Below, in pieces: positions 5,339 to 33,184 of a DNA stretch of 43,432 nucleotides. Source of the DNA: a virus (Duplodnaviria; Caudoviricetes); the IMG/VR virus record IMGVR_UViG_3300033487_000017, positions 1 through 43,432 of that record; one strand, written 5' to 3'. A program made the position numbers and the translations under genes. How positions within the stretch are numbered: the stretch's first letter is position 1; each line of letters begins with the position of its first letter. The notes under the pieces are model-generated. The model did no database searches and was not told the origin of the DNA. It saw nothing but the letters and a program-made list of their open reading frames with translations.

Positions 5339-6010
5339 TCAAACCTCCTGATCTAATGGTTCAATCTCAAACATTGTTCTGTCCGTGTTGATCGTCGGCC
5401 AAACTACCGCCATGCTGTTGTGGTTCAATATATGCCCACACACAACCCCGAGATCATGCTTTTGTACAAATCCATGCGCCTTACAATCCAGCGCAAAATA
5501 CCAATCATCGGCCATCGAGCCGGATAGCCTGAATTCGATCTTTTCCAGCACCCGCCGGTGAATCAGCGTGCAGCCCATCCCGACGCCCTGAGTGGTGATA
5601 ATCCGGCCCCATTGCGCCGCGGCATAATTGCGCTTACTGTCGATGCTCTTGCCGGTCGCCTTGCTGATCTCATGGAAGGCGAGCCATTGATGTTGCCCAT
5701 GACGTGAACAGTACAGCCCATAGGCTACATCTGCATCAATTGCCGCCAGCCTGGTGAGTGTATTGGGCGGGACGATCATATCCGCCTCGATAGATAGCAT
5801 GGCGTCGTAATTGCCATCCAGGACCATCTTGCGCGCCCGGTTATGCTTGTGCATCAGGTTCAGCGTTCCGATTTCCTGCCCCGGCTCATCGTGGCGGGCA
5901 AAGACAATATCCAGCGGGTCGTCATATTCCAGCGTCAAGATGCTCTGAACGGTACGCCCATAGATGCGCGGCATTGTTGGGGCGAGTGGGCAGAATACCA
6001 GCACTTTCAT
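5339..6010 (-). CDS. Glycosyltransferase, GT-A fold (GT2-like)
   Basis: NRARKMVLDGNYDAMLSIEADM (DxD-like), GMGCTLIHRRVLE, DDWYF, VVCGH. Confidence 0.8.
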   Translation of the reverse strand: MKVLVFCPLAPTMPRIYGRTVQSILTLEYDDPLDIVFARHDEPGQEIGTLNLMHKHNRARKMVLDGNYDAMLSIEADMIVPPNTLTRLAAIDADVAYGLYCSRHGQHQWLAFHEISKATGKSIDSKRNYAAAQWGRIITTQGVGMGCTLIHRRVLEKIEFRLSGSMADDWYFALDCKAHGFVQKHDLGVVCGHILNHNSMAVVWPTINTDRTMFEIEPLDQEV

Positions 6011-6681
6011 ACGATAAATTCCTTGCGATAGCGCCGCTTAACGAACAGATAACCCCTCAACATGGCCTCCATATCGCTACCCATCGTCTCACGAGTGCGG
6101 TCAATGCAGCAGGTCGTTGCCCTGACGTGATACATCTCGGTTACCTTGTTCATCCTGATCCACAAATCCCAATCCTCATGGTTGGGTAGCATTTCATCGA
6201 ATGCTCCGACCTCGTTAACCAGCCAGCGATCGTGCAGGACGCAGCACACCGGCGTGATGTTGTGGCTCAGGATATTGCCCGGATCTGGGTCAACGCTCAT
6301 GTATCGCTTGGTATGCCCATCGGCCCACAGTGCGTCTGCGTCGCTGTAGATAAAGCGCGCCTTGCCGATCTCGGCTGTCAGGGCGTCCAGATGCCACTCA
6401 TAGAACCAGTCGTCGTCGTCAAGATAGGCAATCCACTCGCCTTTACTGACTTTTAGCCCGGCATTCCTGGCGGCCGGCAATCCCTGGTTAGCTGCCATGT
6501 TGACATAACGTGTATGCCTGAAGCTCTCCGCGATCTGCCTCACATCTTCCCCGCCATCGTTGACAACAATCGTCTCATAATGGCGGTAACGTTGTTTTGA
6601 GATGCTAGCCAAAGCCCGCCTCAGTAGCTCCGGGCGGTTATAGGTTGGAACGATCACAGATACAAAAGCCGGGCGTGTCAT
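6007..6681 (-). CDS. Glycosyltransferase family 2
   Basis: VSVIVPTYNRPE, VVNDGG, ARNAGL, YLDDDD, EDWDLW; start moved to MTRPAFV (ATGA overlap). Confidence 0.92.
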   Translation of the reverse strand: MTRPAFVSVIVPTYNRPELLRRALASISKQRYRHYETIVVNDGGEDVRQIAESFRHTRYVNMAANQGLPAARNAGLKVSKGEWIAYLDDDDWFYEWHLDALTAEIGKARFIYSDADALWADGHTKRYMSVDPDPGNILSHNITPVCCVLHDRWLVNEVGAFDEMLPNHEDWDLWIRMNKVTEMYHVRATTCCIDRTRETMGSDMEAMLRGYLFVKRRYRKEFIV

Positions 6682-7301
6682 TTTGCGGATACCCAATCCA
6701 GTCGATGTTTGTCCAGGAAATGCGCTAAATTGACTTGCGTCAATTCTGCATCGTCGTTATATTTACGACTTCCACCGCCGCCGTTGACGTGCGTCACAGG
6801 GAATTCGGCCTTGCGCACGCCAAAGCCGCGCTTGATCGCCCGATAGCAGTAATCAGTTTCCTCGAATAGAATCTTGACAAACAATTCATCGAATAGCCCG
6901 ACTTCCAACAGCACCCGGCGCGGGATAGCAAAACACCAGCCAACCGCATAATCACCGAAACGCCAATGCCGCAACTCGGCCCCATAAACCGCGTCATCTG
7001 CCAACTTTGCCAGCACCGGCCCGATCTCGTTATGCACCAATGTGTCATTGTCCAACAGCAGATACCATTGGCTGATAGGGCAATGCACCAATCCCAGGTT
7101 GATCGCCTTGCAATGGCTCTCGTTGTCCGTGCGTACAAACGTAGTCCGGTCAACCGCTGCGGTCGGATAGGGCGGAGTGCTGCCGCTATCCACAAAGACC
7201 AGCGGCGCATCCGGGTTGCGCTTTCTGAGCGACTGCCACAGCGGAAGATTAAACTCATTCCACTGATTGTGTGAAGCGCAGACAATTGAGAATAATTCCA
7301 C
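6678..7301 (-). CDS. Glycosyltransferase family 2
   Basis: VFVDSGS, AINLGL, LLLDNDT, VGLFDELF..FEETDYCYRA. Confidence 0.88.
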   Translation of the reverse strand: MELFSIVCASHNQWNEFNLPLWQSLRKRNPDAPLVFVDSGSTPPYPTAAVDRTTFVRTDNESHCKAINLGLVHCPISQWYLLLDNDTLVHNEIGPVLAKLADDAVYGAELRHWRFGDYAVGWCFAIPRRVLLEVGLFDELFVKILFEETDYCYRAIKRGFGVRKAEFPVTHVNGGGGSRKYNDDAELTQVNLAHFLDKHRLDWVSAK

Positions 7302-7303
7302 GA

Positions 7304-7879
7304 TTACGCCCTCTCAAAGACGAGCAAACTGTTGACCAATTCAACAATTTTCCATTGTTTATTTTTGCGGGCGACCTCATCCACAACACGCTGCACGCCC
7401 GGATGATCCTTGCTGTTGTAATCGTGCATCAGAATATAACGCGTGGAGATGCTGGAGGCGTTGCGCCAATCGACAAAGACATTTTCAAATCGGTGATCGC
7501 CATCAATCAGTATGCTTGTCGGTTTTACGTCTTTGGAAATAGGCCAGGGATTAGAGACGGATTGCACAACCCGAACCCGCTTGTTGACACCGAACGCGCG
7601 CAGATTAGCCTTGACAATCTTTGGCGTCGGCCTCAGATGCACCGCTGGATCTTCCGTATCCCACCAGCCGCCCGTCATCGGGTCGATGGTGTAAACATAC
7701 CCGGTAACGCCAGCGTCTTGCTTTGCCAGCGCGGTAATAATGGCTGTGCCGCCCCATAAGCAGCCGATCTCCACATGATCGCCTGGGATAGCTGTATATT
7801 TCACCAGGCATTCATTCTCGCTCTCGCGGGTTAGTGCAATTCTGCCGGTCATCTTGTTCAATCGTTCAAACCATGTCAT
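7304..7879 (-). CDS. Class I SAM-dependent methyltransferase (Methyltransf_24-like, possible sugar O-methyltransferase)
   Basis: VEIGCLWGGT, YTIDP, LIDGDHRFE, MHDY, PGVQRVVDE. Confidence 0.85.
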   Translation of the reverse strand: MTWFERLNKMTGRIALTRESENECLVKYTAIPGDHVEIGCLWGGTAIITALAKQDAGVTGYVYTIDPMTGGWWDTEDPAVHLRPTPKIVKANLRAFGVNKRVRVVQSVSNPWPISKDVKPTSILIDGDHRFENVFVDWRNASSISTRYILMHDYNSKDHPGVQRVVDEVARKNKQWKIVELVNSLLVFERA

Positions 7880-8696: not shown

Positions 8697-10010
8697 CTAG
8701 ATACCCGTCACCTGAGTGAACATCGTCGGGCGGTGGACCACAAAGGCGGCCCGCAGCTCAGCCAGGATGGTTTGCATGTTACGGATAAACTGATCGTCAA
8801 TCGTGCCAACACGCACCGCACCTTGCTCGCGGTCAAACAGGGTGCAGCCCTGGGTGAAGTCGCCGACCACGCCAGTTCCCGAGGTCATAGCTTCACTCTC
8901 TACAACCGGGATGCCCCACAGGGTTGTGGCACCAACAGCGGAAGGCGGCCCCATCAGATAACCGCCCAGCGTGCCGGTGTCGGCATTCTCGCGGCTCAGG
9001 CGGATCTGTTCCCAGTCCGCCGGGTTCAGAACGATGGCGGTCGGGCGCCCTTTACCGGTCGTTCGCACCAGGGTGCGTCCCTTGAAAATCGCATCTGCCC
9101 GGCTGTCAGAGCCCAGGCCCACCGCATTGATTGCGTGGTCCAGGACGCCGGACAGGTTAGGCGGAGTGCCGTTGCCGGTCACGATTTGCGCCTCCAGGGT
9201 CAGGTCAAGGCCCAGTAGCAGGCGGCCATTGATAGTTCCACGGATCAACGGGGCGTCAGCCAGCATTTTGTTGGTGACCGGAATCCAGTGTGCGATTGTT
9301 TCAACCGGGACGGTTGCGACTGAATAAGCCAGCGCACTTTCGGCCTTCTTGCCAGACGTGCCAGTGGTCACGGTCGCCTCAGCCACGGTTGCGGCGTTGT
9401 TGGTAAACGTGCCCTCATAAACGTATTCGATGGTATCGCTCACGGTCTGGATGCGCGGCACCAGATCCAGGAAGGTCAGTTCCCGCTGGCGGATGTCCAC
9501 ATAACCCGGCAGCACGTCATTCTGGACGAAGCCGCCGCCCGAGGTGGCCGAAGAACCATACAGCAGGGTTTTCGTTGACGACTTGCGGCCCCAATCTATA
9601 AGGCTGGTTCCCTCTTCCAGATTCACATTAAAAGATACCCGGCTCAGATGCGACGTGAACGCTCCATTGAGTTTTAACTCGCGGTATTCGCGTGAATCCA
9701 GGAATTGCTGTCCAGGCGAGATATACGACTTGGCAGCGGTTTCGTGGGCGCTCGGGGTCGGGCGCATTGCACCGGGCGCAGCCTTGGAATACTTGTCCAG
9801 ACCGTCCAGGATTTGCTTCCTACGCGTTTCAGCGTCTTCTAGGCCGGACAACTTCGTCTCAAGCGTATCAATCTCGGCCAATAAGCGCTTAACCTCGCGC
9901 TCATCCTCCCCGTTGGTGATAAGGCCATCGGGGTATTTCTTTTCGATCAGGTCGGCCTGGTTGAACAGGCTCTTGATCTCATTACGTGCTTCTGCAACTG
10001 TCATACTCAT
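8697..10010 (-). CDS. Major capsid protein, HK97 fold with N-terminal delta/scaffold domain
   Basis: Coiled-coil N-terminus, GGGFV, VAEA..KAES, GNGTPPNLSGV, IVLNPADW, LWGIPVVES, VGDF, F.RN, AELR. Confidence 0.93.
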   Translation of the reverse strand: MSMTVAEARNEIKSLFNQADLIEKKYPDGLITNGEDEREVKRLLAEIDTLETKLSGLEDAETRRKQILDGLDKYSKAAPGAMRPTPSAHETAAKSYISPGQQFLDSREYRELKLNGAFTSHLSRVSFNVNLEEGTSLIDWGRKSSTKTLLYGSSATSGGGFVQNDVLPGYVDIRQRELTFLDLVPRIQTVSDTIEYVYEGTFTNNAATVAEATVTTGTSGKKAESALAYSVATVPVETIAHWIPVTNKMLADAPLIRGTINGRLLLGLDLTLEAQIVTGNGTPPNLSGVLDHAINAVGLGSDSRADAIFKGRTLVRTTGKGRPTAIVLNPADWEQIRLSRENADTGTLGGYLMGPPSAVGATTLWGIPVVESEAMTSGTGVVGDFTQGCTLFDREQGAVRVGTIDDQFIRNMQTILAELRAAFVVHRPTMFTQVTGI

Positions 10011-10017
10011 GGGATGT

Positions 10018-10944
10018 TTACTCCTGTAATATTTTGGCGAGGCGTTTACGGTGCTCCGCCATCTCGTGACTGATCAGGCGCGGCCCGACCAGTTTGGGTG
10101 TGGGTGCGGTTGTGAGAACTGATTGCAGGTCGTCACTAACGGCCACGAACCCGGAACACGATTCCAGGAGTGCGTTTAGTTCTTTCCGCTTGGTTTCTGA
10201 TAACGGGCGATCAATCGATTTGACAAATCCCCGTAGATCATTCGTAAGTAGGGCAACATTGTTTGTTTCGTCAGAGATGCGTTCCGCTAGTGTGTAGCTA
10301 ATCTCTGACGGCTGCCAGGACTTCAGGGGTAAGGCAGTATTACGCGGCTCGGCCGGCGTGGGCGTCAAGGTGTCATCCAGGCCCAGCGGCCATGATTTCA
10401 GCCAGACGGCTTTGCCGCGCTTCTCACGCTCGACCAGATGGCCGGCGGTCCCAGAGGACCAGGCTTGCTTACCCTTCTCGGCCATTGAATAAATAAAATG
10501 CTCGTATTCATCGCGCATATCGAGTTGCGCCTCAGCCCAGATACCAAAGTCATCAATTCTGTGAGTGGCTTTACCAATGCGGCGTTTTCCGATTTTCGGA
10601 TCAAGGCCATGCTGGTAATATACCGGTGCTGTCTGTGCATCCCCGAAGTCTGTTTCTTTCGTGAAGAACTCCCCCTCAAGATCCGGGTCTTCGTCGGTTG
10701 AAAAGCGCACCAGGTAGCCGCCGATACGACCGCCGCCCAGGGCTTTGACTTGTCCGCCGTAAACTATCAGGGTGTCATCGATTGATTTCCCGTCGCTTGA
10801 TTCGCCTTCCCCCCGGTTTTCCCACTTGCTCATGCAAATTGCGACGGCCTGGTCATTGTCTTTCGCTGTTCCATCGTCTAAAACCATTGGGATGCAGCGT
10901 TTCATAAACTCATCTTTGGATTCGGTTTCACCTGGATCAGGCAT
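10018..10944 (-). CDS. Prohead protease (HK97-type) with a small N-terminal domain
   Basis: GYLVRF, YQHG, GIWAEAQL, WSSG, TPTPAEP; immediately upstream of the capsid gene; start moved to MPDPGETE. Confidence 0.8.
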   Translation of the reverse strand: MPDPGETESKDEFMKRCIPMVLDDGTAKDNDQAVAICMSKWENRGEGESSDGKSIDDTLIVYGGQVKALGGGRIGGYLVRFSTDEDPDLEGEFFTKETDFGDAQTAPVYYQHGLDPKIGKRRIGKATHRIDDFGIWAEAQLDMRDEYEHFIYSMAEKGKQAWSSGTAGHLVEREKRGKAVWLKSWPLGLDDTLTPTPAEPRNTALPLKSWQPSEISYTLAERISDETNNVALLTNDLRGFVKSIDRPLSETKRKELNALLESCSGFVAVSDDLQSVLTTAPTPKLVGPRLISHEMAEHRKRLAKILQE

Positions 10945-12037
10945 AAGCCACCTCGCTCGGTAACAATATTCTATGGTTCTGGCGCCAGCGGAAATCACCG
11001 ATAATCTCATCCCAGGCTTCCAACCAGCGCCATGCTTGCGTTTCTAAGTTATGATGTTTTCTTACCTTTGCCAGCAATGCCCTACTCAGGCGGCGGCGCA
11101 GGTCATAATCTTCGATCAATGCATTTAGCGCATCTTCCCATTCGCCCACCGTTTCAGCGAACAGACCATCAATGCCGCTTTGGATGAGCTGGTTATAGAC
11201 TGTCGGCGTGGCAACCACGGCCGCACCCGAAGCGCCATACTCCAGCGCCTTCAAGAAGGTTTTGGCGCGGTTGAATTTGGTATCTGCCAGCGAACAACAG
11301 CCAATGTCAATGTTTTTCAGCGCCGCCGGGTATTTTTCGATTGGTAGCCATTCGAGCTGCAAGACCTGCTTGGCCGGCACATGATCGTAAATAATCTTCA
11401 GGTCACGCCCCTGGATGACAAATGTCACCTCTGGATGCTTACGCGCCACACGCCCCCAGGCCTCGGCCATCGCTTCAATGTCGCTGTCAGGGCGAAACGA
11501 TCCAGCCCAGCCAATCGTCAGGCCGGGTACGATGCGCATGGCTTTCTTCTGTAGCCGTTTGAACCAGCGGAAGTCAATATAATTCGGGACCACCTTCACC
11601 GGCTTGTCGGTGATCTGGCGCACCATCGTGGCGAGGCGCTGGCAGGATACGGTCACGCCGTCACTCATCTTCAGGGCGTAGGTCAGGCACTCGCGCCGTT
11701 CTTCGGCATATTCGCGGGTATAAAGGTCTTTCCACATGATCCGGCGTATGAAATCCTCTGAGAACATGTCATCATCACACTCATAGATGATGGCTTTGCC
11801 GGCCTTGTGAAGCGCACCGAACCAGCGTTCGGATTTATGACGTTCACTCATCGGCCAATGCAGACGAGGCAGGATCACGGCGTCAAATTGACCGACTACC
11901 AGCGCCAGCCGATCATCCAGACGCGGCCCCCACTCAACACCCTGGTAGCCCTGGCGCTGTAGCTCGGTGATTGGCAATAGCACCCGGTGAAGGGTGCAGC
12001 CATCCATCTCGCCCGTCATTGCCAGAACTCTTGCCAT
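10937..12037 (-). CDS. Glycosyltransferase, GT-B fold (GT4-like)
   Basis: YECDDD, VVPNYID, IGWAGS, DIGCCSL..FNRAKTFLKALEYGASGAAVVAT; ATG at 12037 with AAGGAG RBS. Confidence 0.88.
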   Translation of the reverse strand: MARVLAMTGEMDGCTLHRVLLPITELQRQGYQGVEWGPRLDDRLALVVGQFDAVILPRLHWPMSERHKSERWFGALHKAGKAIIYECDDDMFSEDFIRRIMWKDLYTREYAEERRECLTYALKMSDGVTVSCQRLATMVRQITDKPVKVVPNYIDFRWFKRLQKKAMRIVPGLTIGWAGSFRPDSDIEAMAEAWGRVARKHPEVTFVIQGRDLKIIYDHVPAKQVLQLEWLPIEKYPAALKNIDIGCCSLADTKFNRAKTFLKALEYGASGAAVVATPTVYNQLIQSGIDGLFAETVGEWEDALNALIEDYDLRRRLSRALLAKVRKHHNLETQAWRWLEAWDEIIGDFRWRQNHRILLPSEVAYA

Positions 12038-12051
12038 AAAACTCCTTAAAT

Positions 12052-12093
12052 AAAAACGGCGCAATCCTTACCCTTTCGGGTTGGATTGCGCCG
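12052..12093 (-). terminator. Intrinsic terminator/attenuator in the head-operon leader
   Basis: RNA sense CGGCGCAATCC-aaccc-GAAA-gggtaa-GGATTGCGCCG-TTTTT, directly before the GT4 RBS. Confidence 0.8.
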
Positions 12094-12170
12094 CGATACG
12101 CTCCTGCGCTTTCGTCCTACGCCAGCGGTACGCTCGGCTTCAGACGATCATCAATATTCAACTAATGAAT

Positions 12171-12199
12171 ATTATACATCTATCGTTGACGGTAGTCAA
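12171..12199 (-). promoter_or_regulatory. sigma70-type late promoter for the head operon
   Basis: TTGACT-17 nt-TATAAT on the minus strand; overlapped by palindromes GTTGAC-N4-GTCAAC (12185-12200) and AATATTCA-N5-TGAATATT (12153-12173). Confidence 0.8.
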
Positions 12200-12678
12200 C
12201 CTCCCGATCTCTTGATCGCCTTTGTAACCGATCCTTCGATGATCTTCTGTATTCTATCTTCACGTTCTTTGATTATGTCCTCAGGCTTGCGCCAGCCCAC
12301 CAGCGCCTCATGTCTTGACTGTTTGTCACCCATGACAAACTCAATACCCGGCGTATCGTTGATGACTGACGCATTTTGCCCGCTGCCTTTGATGCGCCAG
12401 TTCTTGCGTAATTCCTGGGTGCGCCGATACGGGACATCAATTGAGCCGTCATTCAGATTGGCAAAGAACCAGCGGCGTTGGCGATCTGAGAAAAACGTCA
12501 TACCATAAGCCGCCCGCCTGGTGATATAGCGCGGTGATGGCTGGCTAGATTGCATTGTGTCCAGAATATATTTATTGGCATCGTCAAGGGCGGTGTTCTG
12601 TATCTTAATTGGCAGCTCCGCCAATAGATTGAATACCCGTTCCTCGCCAACCATGTCAATGCTGATAAAGCTAGCCAT
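12196..12678 (-). CDS. Putative virion morphogenesis protein (HK97 gp10/Mu gpG-like)
   Basis: Basic protein with YRRTQELRKNW and V.NDTPG motifs; start moved to MASFISID. Confidence 0.5.
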   Translation of the reverse strand: MASFISIDMVGEERVFNLLAELPIKIQNTALDDANKYILDTMQSSQPSPRYITRRAAYGMTFFSDRQRRWFFANLNDGSIDVPYRRTQELRKNWRIKGSGQNASVINDTPGIEFVMGDKQSRHEALVGWRKPEDIIKEREDRIQKIIEGSVTKAIKRSGG

Positions 12679-13369
12679 TGGCTGCCACATCTCCCGGCTG
12701 TTTGCTGGTAAGCGGCTCTTTGGTTGGCTCCAGACTGCAATCGCAGCGCCAACCGCCGCATTCCAGCGCGTCATTCGGCGCGCCCTGCGGGTGAAATCCG
12801 GAGGCGTCCCAATCTTCCGCATTGGCAACGATCCCGTTCAATTCGGCACATGTCGAGCAATGCTCCTCGGTTGCGCCTAATTCCCATTTTAGCCGCACGC
12901 GGTCGGCCCCGAAATGGATACGGGCTTCGGCTACAATCTCGTTGTACCTATTCGCCCATAGACTCACGCGCGCTTGCAATGGGCCAACCGGATCGCCGGC
13001 CTCTTTTGCTTTCTCGATGGCCTCGGCGTAATCAAGAATAAAATCAGTCTCTTGTGCTATGCGTTCCTGCAATACGGCATCATCTTCCGGTGTGTGGTCT
13101 TTGGGGTCAACGCCCACATCCCGGCTGCCCTCGTTCCAGGCGCGCTCAAACTGGCCTTCGATCAGCCGGATCATATCATCGATGAATTCCCCCGCGTCCA
13201 TATCGCCGCGGTAGAAATCCAGTACATCCCGGTTCAATGCGCGCTGGTAGTATTCGACTGTTTTGAGCGCGTCAATCTGGCTGGATAGCGAATGATCCAG
13301 ATTAACACCGCTGGCTTTTAGATAATCAACAGCTTTCAAGATCGCATCCTTAAGCGGCTGTTTGTTCAA
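12671..13369 (-). CDS. Head morphogenesis (MuF/SPP1 gp7-like) minor head protein
   Basis: W.LGATEEHCSTCAELNG...CGGWRCDCSL; downstream of portal. Confidence 0.75.
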   Translation of the reverse strand: MNKQPLKDAILKAVDYLKASGVNLDHSLSSQIDALKTVEYYQRALNRDVLDFYRGDMDAGEFIDDMIRLIEGQFERAWNEGSRDVGVDPKDHTPEDDAVLQERIAQETDFILDYAEAIEKAKEAGDPVGPLQARVSLWANRYNEIVAEARIHFGADRVRLKWELGATEEHCSTCAELNGIVANAEDWDASGFHPQGAPNDALECGGWRCDCSLEPTKEPLTSKQPGDVAANG

Positions 13370-14939
13370 CCTTCAAGGCCTCCACGCCCAGGCGGATCGC
13401 CTCAATTATAGGCCCGTAATCATGATTTGTGTCATTCATTCCCAGATCTTGCTTGAATACGTCACCAATCGCTTTGGCGTCGGCGCATTGCATCAAGGCT
13501 TTACCAATACGATCAACGGTCGGACGATCAAGGGTTTCAGGCTCCCAAGCCACAGGTATTGGTCGTTTGGCGCGCATCTCTTTAGCGCACACCCGCCACC
13601 AGCGGCGCAGCTCGGCCAATCGTACTGCCTTGCTACTCGGCGTTTCTTCCAGCTCTTGCGCATCCGGCTCTTCGGTTGGCTGTTCCTCCTGGAGCTGCTC
13701 AGGCACGGGCTGCGGCTCAGGCTCAGGCTCCGCCATATCATCGCCGCCCTCGATAGGATCATAACCAATCTCGGTACGGGCTTCGTTCACCGTCAGCCAG
13801 GGTTTGTTGCCCACCGCCAGGGCCAGGCGGGTGTACTTCTCGTTTTCGTCCTCCTGCAAGGCTCGCACATTGGTTATATCGAACTCAACGAAGGCGTTAC
13901 GTGTACGGGTAAAGTCAGGCAATAGCGAGGTGTTCAGTTTGGCGGCGTCGGCGCGCCACAGCGGAATCAACTTCTGTTCGGTGAACATCTCGCGCAATTC
14001 GCGCGCATTGCTGTAGGTGGCGTTCTCAAGGCCAGCGCCCAGGCCGGCAACGATAGCAGGCACGCCCAGCACCGCACTGATACGCTCTTCCGGTATACGG
14101 TGGAGCGTGGTCATTTCGAGATCCTTTGGCGAGAAACCAAAATCTTTGATCTCTGTTTCGCGGCTCAACACGGCAATATTGCCCCGGTTGTCCCCGCCAA
14201 ACTTGCGCCGCAGGCGGTCGGTGATGCGATCGGCGTCGGCTTCCGTCAGCGATGTTCCCGCCGTCGGGATGACCACTAGCCCTGGAACGGCGTAATTTTT
14301 CAGCAAGGCGGCGGTGTAATTGTCAGCTTCGTTATCGGTAGAAATCTCGCGGATCAGCGCCTTGAGTGGTGACAGTCCCTTGCGCATATCGTGATCATCC
14401 AGGCCCAGGCGGAAATGGATCACGTTTTCAATCGGGACGCGCACAAATTCGTTCGGGCGGATGTGGTATTTGTAATAACTGATCCAATCGCCAGTATTCG
14501 GCTCTGTGATCGGCTCAATCACGGTTGGCGATACGGGCCACAGCTCGACCACGTTCCCGGTGATGTTGTCGCCGGATCTGACTTTCATCCAGTAGGCATT
14601 ACCATCCACGTGTTTGGCCCAGGCCGTCCAGAATAACAACTCTTCGATGGACAGTTCCCCGTTCGGCGTCGGGTTGTCCAGCAGCGCCTGCAGCGGATGC
14701 TCCAGCCGTTCCTGCACATCGCCGCTTCGATAACGGCGCTTGACCACTAAAGGCGGCTCCGGGTAGCTGGTTGCAATTGCCATCAGACAGGCGAATACCG
14801 CACTATTCGTATCACCGCCCTTGTTGTCAGACGCCCCCGGCCCATGCACCAGTGTTTCGATGCGCGTCCAATCGACTTCGCTGGAGGCGGGCGTAAACTT
14901 TACCGCTTTACTTTGAAATAGACTCTTGACCAGGCTCAT
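13350..14939 (-). CDS. Portal protein (HK97 family) with acidic linker and C-terminal extension
   Basis: SAVFAC, HPLQALLDNP, GNAY, VIHFR, GLSPL, ISAVLGVP, ATYSN, LTVNEARTEIGYDPIEGGD. Confidence 0.93.
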   Translation of the reverse strand: MSLVKSLFQSKAVKFTPASSEVDWTRIETLVHGPGASDNKGGDTNSAVFACLMAIATSYPEPPLVVKRRYRSGDVQERLEHPLQALLDNPTPNGELSIEELLFWTAWAKHVDGNAYWMKVRSGDNITGNVVELWPVSPTVIEPITEPNTGDWISYYKYHIRPNEFVRVPIENVIHFRLGLDDHDMRKGLSPLKALIREISTDNEADNYTAALLKNYAVPGLVVIPTAGTSLTEADADRITDRLRRKFGGDNRGNIAVLSRETEIKDFGFSPKDLEMTTLHRIPEERISAVLGVPAIVAGLGAGLENATYSNARELREMFTEQKLIPLWRADAAKLNTSLLPDFTRTRNAFVEFDITNVRALQEDENEKYTRLALAVGNKPWLTVNEARTEIGYDPIEGGDDMAEPEPEPQPVPEQLQEEQPTEEPDAQELEETPSSKAVRLAELRRWWRVCAKEMRAKRPIPVAWEPETLDRPTVDRIGKALMQCADAKAIGDVFKQDLGMNDTNHDYGPIIEAIRLGVEALKVEQTAA

Positions 14940-15099
14940 TTATTTTACCTCCCCGGAGCGCGGCAAAGTCCACACGCACACCGATAAATATCAATATGGC
15001 CCCCAGGACGATCAAGGCGGCCGGCAACCCGATCCACAGGTAGACGCCTGCCACAAGCAAGACCAGGCCAACGAGGGCGATCAGGTCGTCAAAAGACAC
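14908..15099 (-). CDS. Small two-TM membrane protein between terminase and portal
   Basis: GTG start with GGAGG RBS; two hydrophobic helices; common position in HK97-like phages. Confidence 0.65.
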   Translation of the reverse strand: MSFDDLIALVGLVLLVAGVYLWIGLPAALIVLGAILIFIGVRVDFAALRGGKINEPGQESISK

Positions 15100-15361
15100 G
15101 CGGCCCTCCGCAGGCACAACAGTGACCATAATCATCATCCAGGGTATATCCGTGACAATACGAACAAGTCCGCTTTGAATAAGATGGCCCGCCAATCAAT
15201 GGCTTTATTTCTCTGTTCAATTCGGCATAGTTCCAGCTCCAAGTGCCGTCAGTGTTTACGCGATATACGGCATCCCCCGTGGTTCTTTGTTCGTCAGATG
15301 CGTGAATATCGTCCCATTCCTCTTTACTGAACGGCCTAAGCGGCCCTAAATAGACAGGCAT
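15089..15361 (-). CDS. Hypothetical protein with C-terminal Zn ribbon
   Basis: CSYC...CCACG. Confidence 0.6.
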   Translation of the reverse strand: MPVYLGPLRPFSKEEWDDIHASDEQRTTGDAVYRVNTDGTWSWNYAELNREIKPLIGGPSYSKRTCSYCHGYTLDDDYGHCCACGGPRVF

Positions 15362-15376
15362 TTCTCTCTCCCTTCT

Positions 15377-16627
15377 CTAAAAGACATCCAGCGTCCCTCC
15401 AATCAGGTGGTTGGTTCCATAGCGTATGGCGTCCATAGCGTGATCGTTCTCCTTGACCGGCTCATCTTTCTCGGGCTTCCAGACGTAGCTCTCAAACTCG
15501 TTGATTGTTTCGACGCAGGACGGATCAACCGTCAGCCGCGGGCGTCCATCGCCCTGCACTTTGAGATAACCTTGCACGGTGGTAATCCCATCCAACACGC
15601 GGCCCTTGAAACCCTGCGCGGGCAAGCCCTGGTTATTGAGATCGGCAATCAGGCCGGCGGCGGCAGCATCGACCGCCACAATATAGCAGCCCATCTCGCG
15701 CGCCCATTCGCCCGCTTGCTTGACTACATTCGCCTGGATGACGCCGCGCCGGTAGTATTCACGCGCAACGTGCAAGCGCCCGTCACCATCTTCACCAACC
15801 AGCAGGATAACCGCCGGGTTGGTATAGCCCTCATCCATGGCCAGGAACCAGCGTTGGAATTCACTATCGGGCCTGACTTTGACATGGATCGCCGGGTCGA
15901 AGATGTCGTACACCGCGCCTTCGGCAGTGGCCCAGACGCCTTCCAGCAGCCGTTTACGCCTGACACCGGTCAGGTTGTCCAGGATCGCCATTGTGCGCTT
16001 GCCCTGCTCGGTGATCTCGCCTGTGACCGGATCGAATAACGTCGGATTGTCCCTATGGGTCGTCTTAATCATGCGGAGCTGGCCGGCCTTGTTGCGCTCA
16101 CGTATCCAGTGCTTAGACCCGCCTGGGTTACAATCGCCCATGAGTATCGTATAGGGCATAACCGCACCGCGCCCGGTGGCGCGCGTCCCTAGCGTTTCCC
16201 AATCGTTCACGGCGAGCTGTTCAGCCTGGTTGACATAGATCCCGTCACGCTCGGATGATAATACCTTATCCGGGTTGTCCATCCCGCCGACCCAAACCTT
16301 AGACCCATTGGCGTAGATATACGCCTCGGGTTTGTTTCCGCCGTAGAGTTCAACCGGTGCGCCCTTTATGACGCGCTCAAAGGTTTGCAGGACTGAGCCA
16401 TAGATTGATGATTGTACCTTGCGAACGATGGCCCACTGCGCGCCGGGGTATTTCAGGCAAGACAGATGCACACGCCAGCAGGCCGCCAGCGTCTTGCCGG
16501 TTTCGGCCGGCCCTTCGACAATCACCTCTTGATCGCGAGCATAGAAGAACTCACGATTACCGCCATACGGTGTGTAGCCGTTAGGTGCATTATAGCGAAC
16601 CTGATAAATGCCCGATGTGGCGATCAT
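15377..16627 (-). CDS. terL: Terminase large subunit (PBSX-like)
   Basis: Walker A GPAETGKT, DCNP, DNP, MDEGYTNP, NDHAMDAIRY nuclease motif. Confidence 0.95.
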   Translation of the reverse strand: MIATSGIYQVRYNAPNGYTPYGGNREFFYARDQEVIVEGPAETGKTLAACWRVHLSCLKYPGAQWAIVRKVQSSIYGSVLQTFERVIKGAPVELYGGNKPEAYIYANGSKVWVGGMDNPDKVLSSERDGIYVNQAEQLAVNDWETLGTRATGRGAVMPYTILMGDCNPGGSKHWIRERNKAGQLRMIKTTHRDNPTLFDPVTGEITEQGKRTMAILDNLTGVRRKRLLEGVWATAEGAVYDIFDPAIHVKVRPDSEFQRWFLAMDEGYTNPAVILLVGEDGDGRLHVAREYYRRGVIQANVVKQAGEWAREMGCYIVAVDAAAAGLIADLNNQGLPAQGFKGRVLDGITTVQGYLKVQGDGRPRLTVDPSCVETINEFESYVWKPEKDEPVKENDHAMDAIRYGTNHLIGGTLDVF

Positions 16628-17061
16628 AGCTTGTCCAGGTCCACGCCGACGTTGACATATTGAATTTGTTCCCCCTTGCTAGTTACGTCAACGCTTCCTT
16701 GTGCCTTGCCCATTTCCCACTCAACAATCTCGGTTGCTACGCTTTGACGCAATTTCTCATCAACGCTATTCAATCCAGCCACTTTGACCGCCATTGCTTT
16801 GGCGAGGTTGCGCCGTCTGAGTGTGCGTGCCATTACGATACCATCAAACAACATCAGCCGGATTGCCTCATCGACTTGCGCCTTGTTATCCCAGCCCTTG
16901 ACGGTTGACGGGCTGATACCAATCATCTCGGCGGCTTCTCTATCCGATTTTGACTCATTACGCGCAACGATAAAGCGTAGCTGTGTAATCGTCAGCTGCT
17001 TTAGAATGTCGTCTAGCGCGCTCGAATCAGTATCGTTTGGTGTGCTTTCGTTCGTCATCAT
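16624..17061 (-). CDS. terS: Terminase small subunit
   Basis: N-terminal HTH (DREAAEMIGISPSTVKGW), C-terminal VDVTSKGEQI; ATGA-coupled to terL. Confidence 0.75.
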   Translation of the reverse strand: MMTNESTPNDTDSSALDDILKQLTITQLRFIVARNESKSDREAAEMIGISPSTVKGWDNKAQVDEAIRLMLFDGIVMARTLRRRNLAKAMAVKVAGLNSVDEKLRQSVATEIVEWEMGKAQGSVDVTSKGEQIQYVNVGVDLDKL

Positions 17062-17233
17062 GTCGCATCACACTTGCATTGATTTGCAAGATTGCTCCAA
17101 ATCTCTGGCATTCAGCCAACTTTGCCATTGTCACGGTTTCTGTTTCGGGCAGATCAAGCGTCACCCTGATTCCATTATCGACCAGAGTTTGCACCTTGAA
17201 CACCTGGGCGGTGAACTCAATAGCATCGCTCAT
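17027..17233 (-). CDS. Hypothetical protein
   Basis: Compact coupled ORF upstream of terS. Confidence 0.6.
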   Translation of the reverse strand: MSDAIEFTAQVFKVQTLVDNGIRVTLDLPETETVTMAKLAECQRFGAILQINASVMRHDDERKHTKRY

Positions 17234-17622
17234 GGCTTCGGTGCTTTCAATTCGCCCGTCCCACGCCTGGGTGGACGGTAGACCGGATTGGCCCCCAGGC
17301 TTTCAACCTGGTGAACCAGCTTATTCGCACCGTCCAGGATGTCCGCCTTCTGGCTTTTCTCTTCCCGCAATTCGCATTCCAGGTCTGTGATCCGCCGCTC
17401 CAGTTCGTTGATGCTGATGCGTTGGCGCTCACGGGATTTCTCTAATTCATCGAGCCGCTTCTGCATCGGCTCAATCAGCGCCACAGCCGCAGCGCTAATT
17501 TTGGCCTCGGATTCAGCCTTCAGATTATATGTTTCTGATGGCGCCTTACGCCATGCCAGGATAAACATGCCAACAGACACGAGCACCGCCAGAAATGTAG
17601 TTAACGAGTTCCAATCAATCAT
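17230..17622 (-). CDS. Membrane-anchored coiled-coil protein (lysis-associated)
   Basis: N-terminal TM helix followed by heptad coiled coil; adjacent to holin-like genes. Confidence 0.6.
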   Translation of the reverse strand: MIDWNSLTTFLAVLVSVGMFILAWRKAPSETYNLKAESEAKISAAAVALIEPMQKRLDELEKSRERQRISINELERRITDLECELREEKSQKADILDGANKLVHQVESLGANPVYRPPRRGTGELKAPKP

Positions 17623-17902
17623 AGGACCGCCAGCGGTAGATTGCCCCCCCAGCCATCACCGCCAACGTTACGGTAAAAGCGGGTCGTACAAATACTTGAC
17701 CGAATGTCACAGAATCCATGAACAGACCGGGGGGCGTAAGCGCAACGAATACATACAGGATGCACCAATATAGGCCGATCAAGGCATACAGTATTTTTAG
17801 CCACCAAGCGACCGACTTCTCCCGCCAAACATAGCGCAGCGAAAATACCGCCAGAATAGCGCCTAATACTGCATTGAGCCAGGCCAACCCCTCGACAAAC
17901 AT
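17615..17902 (-). CDS. Three-TM membrane protein (holin/antiholin candidate)
   Basis: Three hydrophobic segments; coupled to the holin gene. Confidence 0.55.
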   Translation of the reverse strand: MFVEGLAWLNAVLGAILAVFSLRYVWREKSVAWWLKILYALIGLYWCILYVFVALTPPGLFMDSVTFGQVFVRPAFTVTLAVMAGGAIYRWRSYD

Positions 17903-18183
17903 TACTGTTTAGTAGTGCGTGCCGAAACGAACTTGTAAAATCCGCTTGCGCTCAGGCCGAATGCCAGACTGCCGACCACCGCAACGTAAATCTGTGAATA
18001 TGGCTCAGGCAGAACGCCTTGGAGCTGGTATAGCGCAAACAACACAGCGCCCATGACGGCGCTGAGCACAGTGACTTTCTTGCCGTCCAGGTTGAACAGC
18101 GATTTAAAGAACTCGACTAGACCGAAGATCAAGGGAATAAGGGCGACACCGCCCACAGCGAACGAACCAGGATCGAACTCCAT
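17902..18183 (-). CDS. Holin
   Basis: Three TM segments, LIFGLVEFFK..GLSASGFYK, basic C-terminus; AAGGAG RBS. Confidence 0.75.
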   Translation of the reverse strand: MEFDPGSFAVGGVALIPLIFGLVEFFKSLFNLDGKKVTVLSAVMGAVLFALYQLQGVLPEPYSQIYVAVVGSLAFGLSASGFYKFVSARTTKQ

Positions 18184-18214
18184 TTTTAGCTCCTTTTTGT
18201 TTTCCCCCCGGAAT

Positions 18215-18253
18215 AAAAAACCGCCGGGGTTGCCAAAGTTGGCATCCCGGCGG
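18215..18253 (-). terminator. Intrinsic terminator/attenuator in the holin-packaging operon leader
   Basis: RNA sense CCGCCGGG-ATGCCAA-CT-TTGGCA-AC-CCCGGCGG-TTTTTT. Confidence 0.8.
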
Positions 18254-18281
18254 GTAGCCCGCTGACGTAGGATGTGCCTAT

Positions 18282-18310
18282 ATTATAGCATTTATCACCC
18301 TATATTTCAA
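18282..18310 (-). promoter_or_regulatory. sigma70-type late promoter for the holin/terminase/portal operon
   Basis: TTGAAA-17 nt-TATAAT with extended -10 (TGc) on the minus strand. Confidence 0.8.
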
Positions 18311-18320
18311 TAACTGAATA

Positions 18321-18509
18321 TTACCTATCCTTCACCGTCATATCTATCTGGACCACCTTGCCGCGGTACACCGTGATAACAATCTCGCCGTGGCCCGTAT
18401 CACCGTAGATCATGGCGAGCCGGTTGGCGATCTTAGCAACGAAGCGCGCTGGCATGACCGACAACAGGCGGCAGATCAGCTCGGTTGGGTTGGGTTCGGC
18501 GTCATCCAT
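18321..18509 (-). CDS. Small protein, YezD/DUF2292-like
   Basis: GHGEIVITVYRGKVVQID resembles the DUF2292 pattern. Confidence 0.5.
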   Translation of the reverse strand: MDDAEPNPTELICRLLSVMPARFVAKIANRLAMIYGDTGHGEIVITVYRGKVVQIDMTVKDR

Positions 18510-18530: not shown

Positions 18531-19370
18531 CTATTTCACCCGCTCCAATACGCCCTTCAGGTGGACGATCTTTCCGTCCGGCGTCTCGATCTCCAGCTCG
18601 TTGACCTTGAGTGTGGTGTCCTCAGGCGGCGGAGGTGGGGGCGGCGGCTCGGGCTTATAATCTAGGCATACCATGCACTCAGCCCGATAAGAGTACAGCT
18701 TTTGGATGCTGGCGTAGGAGATCCATACCGGCCCACCGTTGGCCCAGCCTGCGCCCCAGGTGTTCAGCAAGGCCACCGCCTTGCGGCTGTCCGATACGGA
18801 CTGCCCGAAGATAGCGTGCCCGCCCAGGATAGAACCCCAGCTTGCGCGCGTGCCGATCCAATATTCACTGTTCACGGTACGCGGGCTGTTGAACTCGCTG
18901 AACCAAGGAATGCCGAACACCACCGGGTATCCTTCGGCGGCAGCGGTGCGGATCTCGTCCACCGATTTCGCCCACCAGTAGGACATGATCTTGTATTCCA
19001 TGTCCGGCACGCCAGTCTTGTATAAGGCGTGGCCTTCCTTGCGCAGCACGTCGCCGGCTGCCCACAAATAGGCGCCATCGTTATCGTTCTTGGTGCCGGG
19101 GTCGTTGTCTATCGCTTGCGCCCGCTTGTACAGCCAGTAAGCATTGAATAGCTCGTCATCGTGATAAGACTTCATCCACGAGCAAGAGTAGCCGACGCAG
19201 GCGCCGATGTTGCCCTGGTTCTGCTCGTCGATCCACTCCCGGTTGTACGGGAACGTGACTTCGACGCTGCCCATGGGAGGTACGCCCAGGCGCAGCCTGC
19301 TCATGTCGTAGCGTTCGTTATCCGCCATCTTGCGCGGGTCAGTGGTTGGTATCCAGCCTAATTGTGTCAT
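18531..19370 (-). CDS. Papain-like (C1) cysteine peptidase with Pro-rich linker; putative lysis enzyme
   Basis: NQGNIGACVGY (Gln/Cys), GGHAI (His), LNTWGAGWANGG (Asn). Confidence 0.85.
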   Translation of the reverse strand: MTQLGWIPTTDPRKMADNERYDMSRLRLGVPPMGSVEVTFPYNREWIDEQNQGNIGACVGYSCSWMKSYHDDELFNAYWLYKRAQAIDNDPGTKNDNDGAYLWAAGDVLRKEGHALYKTGVPDMEYKIMSYWWAKSVDEIRTAAAEGYPVVFGIPWFSEFNSPRTVNSEYWIGTRASWGSILGGHAIFGQSVSDSRKAVALLNTWGAGWANGGPVWISYASIQKLYSYRAECMVCLDYKPEPPPPPPPPEDTTLKVNELEIETPDGKIVHLKGVLERVK

Positions 19371-19759
19371 GTCATTTCTCCTTGTGATAATTCATTTACG
19401 GCCTCCCATATATCTTTATATGGGCCAACAATACGCTTTTTGTATCCAATTGAGCGCAAGTAATCCACAATGACGCCTGTAAGCTTACTACCAATATTGC
19501 GCCCATAATGGACATATCCCCATGTGTCCATTTCCTGATCCGTGTAAGCCACAAGTTCTCTAACTGTGCGAATATCGTTCCATTTGAGGGAATGTGTTAC
19601 CCTCGCACCCAGAATATCATCCCGAAGTTGTATATCCGGCCATTCCTGATGATGGCTTGTATCTCTCTTGTATTTTATCGGCTCATACGCAACACCAGAA
19701 GCTACTTCAACTTCAACCCGCAATATACTGCCGCAGTGCGGGCAGATAAATTCTGTCAT
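19367..19759 (-). CDS. Protein with an N-terminal CxxC motif and an RNA polymerase alpha-CTD-like domain
   Basis: LGARVTHSLKWNDIRTVRELVAYTDQEM..RNIGSK..VIVDYL parallels the alpha-CTD pattern LSVRxxNCLKxxxIxTVxDLxxxTExDL..NFGxKS. Confidence 0.6.
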   Translation of the reverse strand: MTEFICPHCGSILRVEVEVASGVAYEPIKYKRDTSHHQEWPDIQLRDDILGARVTHSLKWNDIRTVRELVAYTDQEMDTWGYVHYGRNIGSKLTGVIVDYLRSIGYKKRIVGPYKDIWEAVNELSQGEMT

Positions 19760-29269: not shown

Positions 29270-30079
29270 CTATGGCTGCGCTGCCTTGCGGCTGTTCAGC
29301 ACCAGGACTGCCGCGGCGTGCAATCCGTTGGTAGCTTTGTCGATCACGATTTGAAGCTGCTCCTCGGACAGTTCGCCAAGCTGCTTGCCCTTCGGGGTGC
29401 GCATGTTGAGCGCGGCTTCCAGGGTCAGATCCTCGTGCGGCTGTTCCTGCGGGGCGGGTGCGGGCGTCTCGTGGTATTCGCCCTCGATAAGGTCCATATC
29501 CTCAATGTCCTGGGTGAAGAACTCCGAGGCGTTGGCGGCGATAAGGGTAGCGGCCACCAGCGACCGCTTCTGGCTCATCTTGTTGATGGTGTTCACCAGA
29601 TCAAATGGCTCCAGGTTCTCAACCACGTAAACCTTGTATTTGCCATACTGCCCGGATTTTTCCTCAACCCGGATTGCGCGCGCCTTGTCGTCCTCGGTGG
29701 CCTGTTTCTCGGTGATGTTGCGGTAGCGGTATTTCTTCTCCTTGCTGTTACAGGAACCAATACCGCTGCCGACCTTCACGCCGTTGTGGTACAGGTCACA
29801 GCGGTGCTCGAAGTAGAACAGCCCCTTCTCGAAGTCTACGATCTTGTCGGTTACGACGAACTCGGGACACATCCCGAACAGGCTGCACAGTTTCTCAGCT
29901 CCGGGCTTCAGCAGGGTAGGCATGTTCCCGGTCCCAGGAACCACGCCATAATCCTTGCCCGATTTCATCACCTTCTTGGTGAACTCAATCACCGCGTTAT
30001 AGCGGGCGATAGCATCCTGGATGCCCATCACGGGCATAAGGGCGGTCGTGCCGGTTGGTACGATTGCTTGGTCAATCAT
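29270..30079 (-). CDS. Putative single-strand annealing / recombination protein
   Basis: PTLLKPGAEKL, GSCNSKE, NTINKMSQKRSLVAA, FTQDIED; early-region position. Confidence 0.6.
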   Translation of the reverse strand: MIDQAIVPTGTTALMPVMGIQDAIARYNAVIEFTKKVMKSGKDYGVVPGTGNMPTLLKPGAEKLCSLFGMCPEFVVTDKIVDFEKGLFYFEHRCDLYHNGVKVGSGIGSCNSKEKKYRYRNITEKQATEDDKARAIRVEEKSGQYGKYKVYVVENLEPFDLVNTINKMSQKRSLVAATLIAANASEFFTQDIEDMDLIEGEYHETPAPAPQEQPHEDLTLEAALNMRTPKGKQLGELSEEQLQIVIDKATNGLHAAAVLVLNSRKAAQP

Positions 30080-30380
30080 TCTCGGCCTCCTGTGCGGCTT
30101 TCTCAGCAGCCCGGATGCGCGCCCAATCGCGGCAGCCTGGGCAGGGTTCGTTTAACGGATTGCAAGTACATTCCGGGTAATTCAAATGGGCCAGCCGGAT
30201 AATCTCGTCCACGCTCATGCTCTCGCTGATCCAAGTTTCTACCCATTCGTTGTATTTCTCCTCGCCCCAAAGATAATATAGCGGCATGAGTTCCTTCATC
30301 ATGCGCGCTTGCTCGTTGCGCCGGTATTCCCGCGCATACCATTGTTCCATTGACTTTCTGGTGGATTGATGTATACTCAT
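30072..30380 (-). CDS. Hypothetical protein with Cys cluster
   Basis: CTC..CPGC; AAAGG RBS. Confidence 0.6.
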   Translation of the reverse strand: MSIHQSTRKSMEQWYAREYRRNEQARMMKELMPLYYLWGEEKYNEWVETWISESMSVDEIIRLAHLNYPECTCNPLNEPCPGCRDWARIRAAEKAAQEAEND

Positions 30381-30420
30381 TGCAGTACCTTTTCCTTGCA
30401 AATGGTGAAGGTCAAGCCCG

Positions 30421-30639
30421 TCAGCTCCGGCTGGCGGGTTTTGCGTTTAGCTGTTCCTGCTGGAACAGCCAGATAGCACGGTCGTACGCGCTCTCGGCTG
30501 CATTGGCCGCATCCTTGGCGGCCTTGACATCGGCTGCGCTAGCCATGCGCTGATCGTGCAACTGGCACACATCTAGCCAATGCCGGGTGGCGGCTCTGGC
30601 CACCTTCTGAAGTTCGTTGAGTTCCCGTGCGGTGATCAT
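30421..30639 (-). CDS. Hypothetical protein
   Basis: Start moved to MITAREL. Confidence 0.6.
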   Translation of the reverse strand: MITARELNELQKVARAATRHWLDVCQLHDQRMASAADVKAAKDAANAAESAYDRAIWLFQQEQLNAKPASRS

Positions 30640-31139: not shown

Positions 31140-31168
31140 ATTATATATCCTGTGTGACAATGTGTCAA
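31140..31168 (-). promoter_or_regulatory. Early lytic promoter, perfect sigma70 consensus
   Basis: TTGACA-17 nt-TATAAT; overlapped by TGACA-N3-TGTCA (31155-31167) and flanked by the inverted pair TTACACT (31129)/AGTGTAA (31170). Confidence 0.9.
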
Positions 31169-33154: not shown

Positions 33155-33184
33155 AGAAGAAAAGCCCCTGAGTTCAGGGGCTTT
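33155..33184 (-). terminator. Intrinsic terminator, probably bidirectional, between convergent genes
   Basis: AAAGCCCCTGA/TCAGGGGCTTT stem; TTTTCTTCTT tail on the minus strand. Confidence 0.75.

What the first reader, a model, noticed from the sequence alone, without database searches (positions are those of the whole stretch)
12052..18310. Two attenuated late promoters whose leader RNAs are complementary: candidate RNA-RNA switch linking the packaging and head operons
Seen: two minus-strand near-consensus promoters (18282-18310 and 12171-12199) are each followed by a short leader ending in an intrinsic terminator before the first gene. The predicted terminated RNAs are about 60 nt and about 110 nt. 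The 18.2-kb leader carries UCCUACGUCAGCGG (18272-18259) near its 5' end. The 12.1-kb leader carries CCGCUGGCGUAGGA (12128-12115). These form a 14-bp duplex with one G-U pair. In both leaders this segment overlaps a hairpin that competes with the terminator or antiterminator. Known: phage P4 CI RNA and P1 C4 RNA regulate through short complementary sites, and lambda pR'-tR' needs Q antitermination. Inference: the two leaders pair in trans, possibly opening the head-operon terminator while reinforcing the holin/terminase terminator, which would time morphogenesis and lysis. I recognise no Q, RinA or ArpU gene here.
Basis: partly seen in the sequence, partly recalled or inferred. Interest (0 to 1): 0.85.

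Follow-up and report, generated by a model that had tools for sequence, protein, structure and literature searches.

The report
Complementary phage late-gene leader RNAs
An uncultured temperate phage starts both its lysis-packaging operon and its capsid operon with a strong promoter, a folded leader and a stop signal, and the two leaders carry a 14-base mirror match, so the capsid-operon leader RNA likely pairs with the other leader and would force it to stop early, an untested RNA link between two late operons.

Summary
The window is a circular 43.3-kb temperate phage. Both promoters, leaders, terminators and the 14-bp match (one G-U) are real. The match is rare: 4 of 20,000 shuffles, 0 of 846 between-genome leader pairs, 1 hit in 1.98 Mb of related phage DNA.

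Leader A (holin-terminase-portal) is predicted to fold a bulged antiterminator whose 5' strand is the 14-mer. One relative keeps 13 of the 14 bases and shows three compensatory pair changes. Leader B (head operon) belongs to a covarying RNA family with no Rfam match: a bulged hairpin plus an antiterminator overlapping the terminator. The window's copy departs from the family where it matches A.

Blocking the 14-mer collapses A's antiterminator in silico, so B RNA would reinforce A's terminator. Opening of B by A is not supported.

Against: no relative holds both leaders, so covariation between them is untested. Distant relatives show no leader-leader matches. B's segment is buried in a hairpin (15 kcal/mol to open), and the co-folding gain is ordinary for A. 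Trans pairing in either direction is about even odds against cis-only attenuators read by a phage protein.

The parts
18321..18509 (-). 62-aa DUF2292-like ORF ending just upstream of promoter A; candidate reader of the leaders (inferred from position only)
   Evidence: Pfam DUF2292 20.5 bits, below the cut-off of 22; homolog at the same place in L123; matched in 1 of 36 records searched, the window itself
18282..18310 (-). Promoter A, sigma-70-type, TG-extended -10
   Evidence: 11 of 12; L123 has a TG-extended -10 at the same place
18259..18272 (-). 14-mer of leader A; 5' strand of the predicted antiterminator including its UA and UCA bulges
   Evidence: 13 of 14 bases identical in L123, where four-fold sites are 222 of 392 identical
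18243..18274 (-). Predicted bulged antiterminator hairpin of leader A, sequestering the 5' arm of terminator A
   Evidence: co-transcriptional folding; three pairs changed on both sides in L123; weak z-scores of -1.6 and -1.0
18215..18253 (-). Intrinsic terminator A (hairpin and U tract)
   Evidence: outer stem kept in L123
13350..18183 (-). Operon behind A: holin (17902-18183), small ORFs, HTH protein (16624-17061, likely small terminase), terL (15377-16627), portal (13350-14939)
12171..12199 (-). Promoter B, sigma-70-type; its -35 lies in a 6-bp inverted repeat (12200-12185)
12112..12147 (-). Hairpin H1 of leader B; shortened variant of the family hairpin
   Evidence: model R1, built without the window, matches 12052-12163 at E 3.4e-6
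12115..12128 (-). 14-mer of leader B; 3' strand of H1, complementary to the 14-mer of A
   Evidence: 15 kcal/mol to open
12088..12109 (-). Hairpin H2 of leader B: predicted antiterminator overlapping the 5' arm of terminator B
   Evidence: three pairs change on both sides among 9 aligned copies, 5 of 500 shuffles
12052..12094 (-). Intrinsic terminator B (hairpin and U tract), about 15 nt before the next start codon at 12037
8697..12037 (-). Operon behind B: glycosyltransferase, 330-aa ORF without family hit (prohead protease by position only), major capsid protein (8697-10010)

Best explanation
Both sites are promoter-leader-terminator units predicted to act as attenuators, and the short RNA of leader B likely pairs in trans with the nascent leader A, which would displace A's antiterminator and stop transcription of the holin-terminase-portal operon. 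Steps: (1) both promoters are likely always on and make short terminated RNAs of about 62 and 115 nt (inferred from consensus and folding). (2) Nascent A first folds a bulged hairpin that hides the terminator arm (predicted; covaries in one relative). (3) B's 14-mer matches that hairpin's 5' strand base for base, bulges included (shown), so it would outcompete the imperfect cis partner (predicted). (4) B has its own cis switch, H2 against the terminator (covaries across a family), likely opened by an unidentified phage factor in lytic growth (inferred). (5) B read-through would lower the pool of short B RNA and so release A, coupling lysis and packaging to head-gene expression (inferred, untested).
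For: Match beyond chance: 4 of 20,000 shuffles and 0 of 846 between-genome pairs at 14 bp; 1 hit in 1.98 Mb, about 6e-5 per 115-nt window; reciprocal best complements in the window. L123 keeps 13 of the 14 bases, including the five bulged ones that cis pairing does not constrain, while four-fold sites are 57% identical (about p 0.06 for the five, 6e-4 for all 13). Three compensatory pair changes support A's antiterminator. Blocking the 14-mer collapses it. Net duplex energy after opening both RNAs is -9.3 kcal/mol and the co-fold gain is -11.3; none of 40 other leaders does as well with B. The window's B departs from the family's conserved H1 loop where it matches A, and seven canonical family copies give only 5-7 bp with A. 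The single mismatch falls as G-U in the sense-sense pairing (weak, a two-fold argument). Precedents in print: P4 CI (PMC4825925, passage), pCF10 Anti-Q (PMC3181467, passages), StxS (PMC7547250, abstract).
Against: No fetched relative holds both leaders, so there is no covariation between them: L123 ends before B, and model R2 found A only in the window and L123 among 100 sources. Twelve within-genome leader pairs in relatives reach 6-12 bp, like unrelated pairs, and one unrelated pair reaches 13. Circular record G004 has a canonical B and no complementary leader was seen (contexts read by eye). L124 (terL 84-89%) has B but no A-type leader in the 3.5 kb before its terminase. B's segment is mostly paired and costs 15 kcal/mol to open, leaving a 3-nt internal loop as toehold. 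Five of 40 unrelated leaders give A an equal or better co-fold gain. A protein reading A's bulges would conserve them equally well. A scan of many genomes will turn up some matches of this rarity by chance (inference).
Confidence: 0.42

Rival explanations
1. Both leaders are cis-only attenuators opened by a phage protein (the DUF2292-like ORF or another small early gene) or by direct RNA-polymerase contact, and the 14-base match is chance or a relic of shared hairpin ancestry or a local copying event.
For: The B family has conserved unpaired loops typical of a protein or ligand site and covarying H1 and H2 in relatives where no partner RNA was found. Promoter-leader-terminator units are common in this phage group (42 detected in 45 records or loci). 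Eight of A's 13 conserved bases are explained by cis pairing. Canonical B already shares part of the 3' strand, so few changes complete the match. The co-fold gain is ordinary for A.
Against: An in-register 14-bp match including both bulges is rare. The window's B has lost the family's H1 loops at the matching positions. Model R1 does not hit A and R2 does not hit B, so the two hairpins are not detectably paralogous.
Confidence: 0.38
2. One reading: the short, open A RNA invades H1 of nascent B and opens the head-operon terminator, or the two RNAs act on each other.
For: A's 14-mer is accessible in the terminated RNA (2 kcal/mol to open), which suits a trans-acting seed. With the 14-mer blocked, B's freed H1 strand can pair with the terminator 5' arm in some nascent lengths.
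Against: B's terminator arm is already about 0.9-1.0 paired upstream through H2 without A, the full co-fold keeps terminator B intact, and the 14-mer overlaps neither H2 nor the terminator.
Confidence: 0.11
3. The 14-mer is a DNA site for a phage repressor or activator, present in opposite orientations downstream of both promoters.
For: Two near-identical copies (13 of 14) and no third within one or two mismatches; conserved in L123; the phage encodes HTH proteins, including a LuxR-type one at 33174-33404.
Against: The site is not palindromic and lies at different distances from the two -10 boxes (about 10 and 43 nt). It coincides with helix strands of RNA structures that covary. It was not found in relatives' B leaders.
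Confidence: 0.07
4. The inverted 14-mers are recombination sites that flip the 6.1-kb holin-to-portal segment.
For: They are inverted repeats and the phage has a large serine recombinase at 31552-33063.
Against: Flipping would separate the operon from promoter A (sequence logic), and contigs of two runs cross site B unchanged, one of them also site A.
Confidence: 0.02

Closest known systems
Satellite phage P4 CI RNA with seqA/seqC (PMC4825925, passage seen); P1 C4 RNA (recalled)
   Same: A short phage RNA pairs with complementary leader sites and causes premature termination.
   Different: CI is processed from the same transcript it controls and governs immunity and replication genes. Here two separate late-operon leaders 6 kb apart match each other, and no Rfam family matched.
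Lambdoid pR'-tR' with 6S/StxS RNA (PMC7547250, abstract and introduction seen)
   Same: A late promoter terminates at once, and the short by-product RNA can act in trans.
   Different: No Q family hit. The leaders here carry covarying antiterminator hairpins, and the proposed target is another attenuator, not an mRNA translation site.
pCF10 Anti-Q/Qs (PMC3181467, passages seen) and pT181/pIP501 antisense attenuators (PMC3753616, passages seen)
   Same: [quoted passage not shown]
   Different: Those RNAs are cis-encoded on opposite strands with long complementarity (223 nt overlap in pCF10), and pT181 starts by loop kissing. Here both RNAs are on the same strand, do not overlap and share 14 bp.
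ANTAR dual-hairpin leaders (recalled) and HK022 put RNA (PMC9378689, search listing only)
   Same: Two tandem hairpins in a leader; in ANTAR leaders the second overlaps the terminator, as H2 does in the B family.
   Different: No ANTAR domain among 70 ORFs; the conserved B features are internal loops and bulges, not hexaloops. Polymerase contact as in put was not tested.

Membership tests
P4 CI / P1 C4 antisense RNAs | Sequence and structure match to curated RNA families | tested here: not met
   No Rfam hit at gathering score in the window or in 10 related loci; only snoRNA- or RNase P-like noise at E 0.25-8
P4 CI / P1 C4 antisense RNAs | Short complementary site whose pairing favours termination | tested here: inconclusive
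   Predicted for A by constrained folding; no experiment
P4 CI / P1 C4 antisense RNAs | RNA processed from the transcript it controls, in the immunity region | tested here: not met
   The two leaders are separate late units; the divergent early promoter is at about 31.2 kb
Lambdoid pR'-tR' / Q late control | Strong sigma-70 promoter followed by an intrinsic terminator before late genes | tested here: met
   (sequence only)
Lambdoid pR'-tR' / Q late control | Q antiterminator gene | tested here: not met
   No Q, RinA or ArpU family among the ORFs scanned; many early ORFs have no family at all
Lambdoid pR'-tR' / Q late control | Q-binding element and sigma-dependent pause (recalled) | not tested
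   no suitable model
pT181/pIP501/pCF10 antisense attenuators | Cis-encoded antisense RNA overlapping the leader on the opposite strand | tested here: not met
   Both leaders are on the minus strand 6.1 kb apart; no plus-strand promoter of 10 or more of 12 near either
pT181/pIP501/pCF10 antisense attenuators | Mutually exclusive antiterminator and terminator in the target leader | tested here: met
   Predicted in A, with compensatory changes in one relative
pT181/pIP501/pCF10 antisense attenuators | Initiation by complementary hairpin loops | tested here: inconclusive
   Only A's UA bulge and B's 3-nt internal loop face each other unpaired
ANTAR-regulated dual hairpins (features recalled) | Two hexaloop hairpins and an ANTAR protein | tested here: not met
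   Loops vary from 3 to 10 nt; no ANTAR hit in the phage; host not examined
HK022 put RNA | Protein-free antitermination through RNA polymerase contact | not testable with these tools
   needs in vitro transcription

The most novel reading that the evidence does not exclude
Two non-overlapping late-operon attenuators of one phage are wired together by their own terminated leader RNAs: a lineage-specific variant of an undescribed antiterminator RNA family has been reshaped into the exact complement of the other leader's antiterminator, so head-gene read-through sets the timing of lysis and packaging genes without a Q-type protein.
Probability: 0.45. Interest if true: 0.8.

Novelty: new variant of a known kind. 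Interest (0 to 1): 0.6.

Why it matters
If true, it shows that the short RNAs discarded by promoter-proximal attenuators can regulate other attenuators of the same phage, giving an RNA-level order to head, packaging and lysis genes, and it catches such a link arising recently from a conserved RNA family. It is testable with two short templates and RNA polymerase. Even if the pairing is chance, leader B defines a covarying phage RNA family without an Rfam match (9 aligned copies here) whose reader is unknown, in phages with no cultured relative above 39% terminase identity.

Tried and rejected
Rfam: nothing relevant.

Finding more A-type leaders: the viral scan for A's 13-mer plus hairpin gave 21 stretches, of which one is the identical record L001 and 20 read as coding-sequence chance hits without promoter or terminator. 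The viral scan with the DUF2292-like alignment returned only L001. Holin homologs (55 of 59 candidates) come without DNA context. The holin profile hit 2 of 401 genomes of the class of G034 and 1 of 35 virus records, none with an A-type leader.

Host search: MCP was not found in those 401 genomes at E 1e-60. Model R1 hit 2 of 151 genomes weakly, in contexts that do not look like leaders.

Expression and variants: no RNA holder was listed among sequencing runs, so expression is unexamined. DNA contigs of four runs showed no strand-change joint over 11.7-18.7 kb, and four runs (one shared) showed no variant inside leader B; contigs drop rare forms.

Side ideas dropped: DUF2292 genes of two Firmicutes genomes show no similar downstream motif. 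A 7-bp stem shared with the plus-strand RNA at 30.4 kb was dropped because the 7-mer occurs 37 times in the window. A hammerhead or kink-turn reading of B was considered by eye and rejected because core pairs are missing (criteria recalled). A 10-bp match between two divergent leaders in G030 is within the between-genome range (52 of 846 pairs reach 10 or more).

Limits of method: my leader finder missed family members that the covariance model found (L127, L360), so the within-genome test is incomplete.

Literature: nine searches listed no paper describing pairing between two phage late-operon leaders or this RNA family. Most subscription papers and all supplements were unseen, and one search returned only irrelevant hits.
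Full report
Setting. The window has a 127-base terminal repeat and is classed as a virus record with direct terminal repeats, so it reads as a circular phage genome of about 43.3 kb. It encodes a large serine integrase, replication genes, endolysin, holin, terminase, portal, capsid and tail genes, nearly all on the minus strand. The closest cultured terminase is 39% identical. The best hit among bacterial genomes (59%) lies in an Anaerolineae assembly (L202), so a Chloroflexota host is a weak inference; the capsid protein was not found in 401 genomes of that class.

The two promoters are the best sites between 8 and 24 kb and two of four strong minus-strand sites in the genome. Each is followed by a folded leader, a terminator hairpin with U tract and a ribosome site. 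Unit A precedes holin, terminase and portal; unit B precedes a glycosyltransferase, an unassigned 330-aa ORF and the capsid gene.

Chance. Complements of this length occur 27 times across the minus strand, so position is what matters. Between the two leader RNAs, 4 of 20,000 shuffles reach 14 bp. None of 846 pairs of leaders from different genomes does, though two reach 13: one is A's own homolog against the window's B, the other is an unrelated pair. A's 23-nt leader finds one such complement in 1,978,018 nt of related phage DNA. The two leaders are reciprocal best complements in the window. By energy the case is weaker: the co-fold gain of -11.3 kcal/mol is equalled or beaten by 5 of 40 unrelated leaders for A and by 0 of 40 for B. 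Allowing for a few leader pairs per genome and for a scan of very many genomes, chance is not excluded (inference).

Leader A. Folding by length shows that the first 34 nt form a hairpin of three short helices separated by UA and UCA bulges on the 5' strand. Its 3' strand is the 5' arm of the terminator. The 14-mer is almost the whole 5' strand. One relative, L123 (terL 93% identical, four-fold sites 222 of 392 identical), has the same unit after the same small ORF. It keeps 13 of the 14 bases, changes the flanks, and changes three pairs of the hairpin on both sides. Eight of the 13 bases are held by cis pairing; the five bulged bases are not, and keeping all five has a neutral chance of about 0.06. 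The hairpins are not unusually stable (z -1.6 and -1.0), and this rests on two sequences. A model built from the pair found no third copy among 100 sources.

Leader B. Relatives carry a longer form at the same position. A covariance model built from five of them, without the window, matched the window's B at E 3.4e-6. It also found members outside its training set: L360, L413 and L278 at E below 1e-6, L006 and L025 weakly. The family has a bulged hairpin H1 with conserved unpaired loops, a second hairpin H2 whose 3' strand is the terminator's 5' arm, and the terminator. On nine aligned copies the modelled structure is 88% paired, with 25 of 30 pairs changing on both sides (fitted, so it leans that way). 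H2 was not in the model: it is 85% paired with three two-sided changes, reached by 5 of 500 shuffles, and by motif 7 of 8 relatives fit it fully. No Rfam family matched the window or ten loci. The window's H1 is shortened and has lost the family loops, and the changes on its 3' strand are those that complete the match to A; seven canonical copies give 5-7 bp with A.

Effect of pairing. With the 14-mer held unavailable, pairing of A's terminator arm with upstream bases drops from mostly 0.9-1.0 to about 0.02 at most positions, so termination at A is predicted. Opening costs are 2 kcal/mol for A and 15 for B, net -9.3 for the duplex. B's segment is buried, which is a kinetic objection to either direction.

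Generality. Among 42 leaders detected in 45 records or loci, the 12 within-genome pairs of relatives reach 6-12 bp; the finder missed some known members. Circular record G004 has a canonical B and no complementary leader among hits of 11 bp or more (read by eye). L124 has B but no A-type unit in the 3.5 kb before its terminase. So pairing is not a property of the B family and, if real, is confined to the lineage with unit A. The one other genome with A (L123) ends before B, so the key covariation test could not be run.

Mechanism. Most likely (0.42): both promoters fire continuously, short B RNA pairs with nascent A, displaces the bulged antiterminator and holds lysis and packaging genes off; an unidentified phage factor opens B through H2, and less short B RNA would release A. 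The match and the folds' covariation are shown; pairing in the cell, its direction and the factor are inferred. Nearly as likely (0.38): two cis switches read by a protein, with an incidental match. No Q, RinA or ArpU family was hit. A DUF2292-like ORF abuts promoter A in the window and L123, scores just under the Pfam cut-off, and was not matched in 35 other records; its profile finds 10 proteins, seven of similar length. Its role is a guess from position.

Known systems. It works like P4 CI, which ends transcription early by pairing with leader sites (PMC4825925, passage). It also works like pCF10 Anti-Q, a 5'-end RNA of one operon that enhances termination in another's leader (PMC3181467, passages), and like pT181 (PMC3753616, passages). 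It shares with lambdoid pR'-tR' the short late RNA that can gain a trans role (StxS, PMC7547250, abstract and introduction). It fails membership of each: no Rfam match, no Q, no cis overlap. Nine literature searches listed no description of pairing between two late-operon leaders; subscription papers and supplements were not seen. Earlier unchecked notes of this scan describe similar promoter-leader-terminator units in other phages, so the layout itself appears common; none covers this genome or family.

Verdict. Real feature, new variant of a known kind, interest 0.6. The B RNA family is solid and had no match in the libraries searched; the trans switch is about even odds and cheap to test.

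Noticed in passing
window 30350-30445 (+): A third strong promoter-terminator unit makes a predicted 62-nt RNA (fold z -4.7) antisense to the ribosome site and start codon (30380) of the early gene 30072-30380; it resembles sar or OOP-type cis-antisense RNAs (recalled)..
   Followed up: partly
window 12185-12200: A perfect 6-bp inverted repeat with a 4-bp spacer covers the -35 box of promoter B; a shorter one covers the -35 box of the early promoter at 31168. Possible operators.
   Followed up: no
window 12163-12155 (-) and many related leaders: A short AAYTGAATA-like motif recurs just after the -10 box of many leaders in this phage group; its reverse complement lies just upstream of promoter A's -35 box.
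   Followed up: no
window 5339-7879 and 10937-12037 (-): Several glycosyltransferase and methyltransferase genes sit inside the head and neck operon, and the arrangement is kept in relatives; possible virion glycosylation.
   Followed up: no
window 19367-19759 (-): 130-aa ORF with a weak match to the RNA polymerase alpha C-terminal domain (E 1e-4, below cut-off), between endolysin and peptidase genes; possible transcription factor.
   Followed up: no
L372 1470-1500 and about 955-985 (record G008): A 30-nt stretch of the head-operon leader is repeated almost exactly about 500 bp upstream on the same strand, flanking small ORFs.
   Followed up: partly
L415 7330-7600 (record G030): Two back-to-back promoter-leader-terminator units in a provirus; the terminator loop of one matches the 5' part of the other over 10 bp.
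   Followed up: partly
L381-L382 (record G013): An 8-bp palindrome with conserved flanks recurs in several leaders, terminators and coding regions (22 hits of 12 bp or more for one leader).
   Followed up: no
L427 120-360 (G433 contig C264): A holin-like gene is preceded by a promoter and a leader of several similar hairpins in a contig with no terminase or portal match.
   Followed up: no
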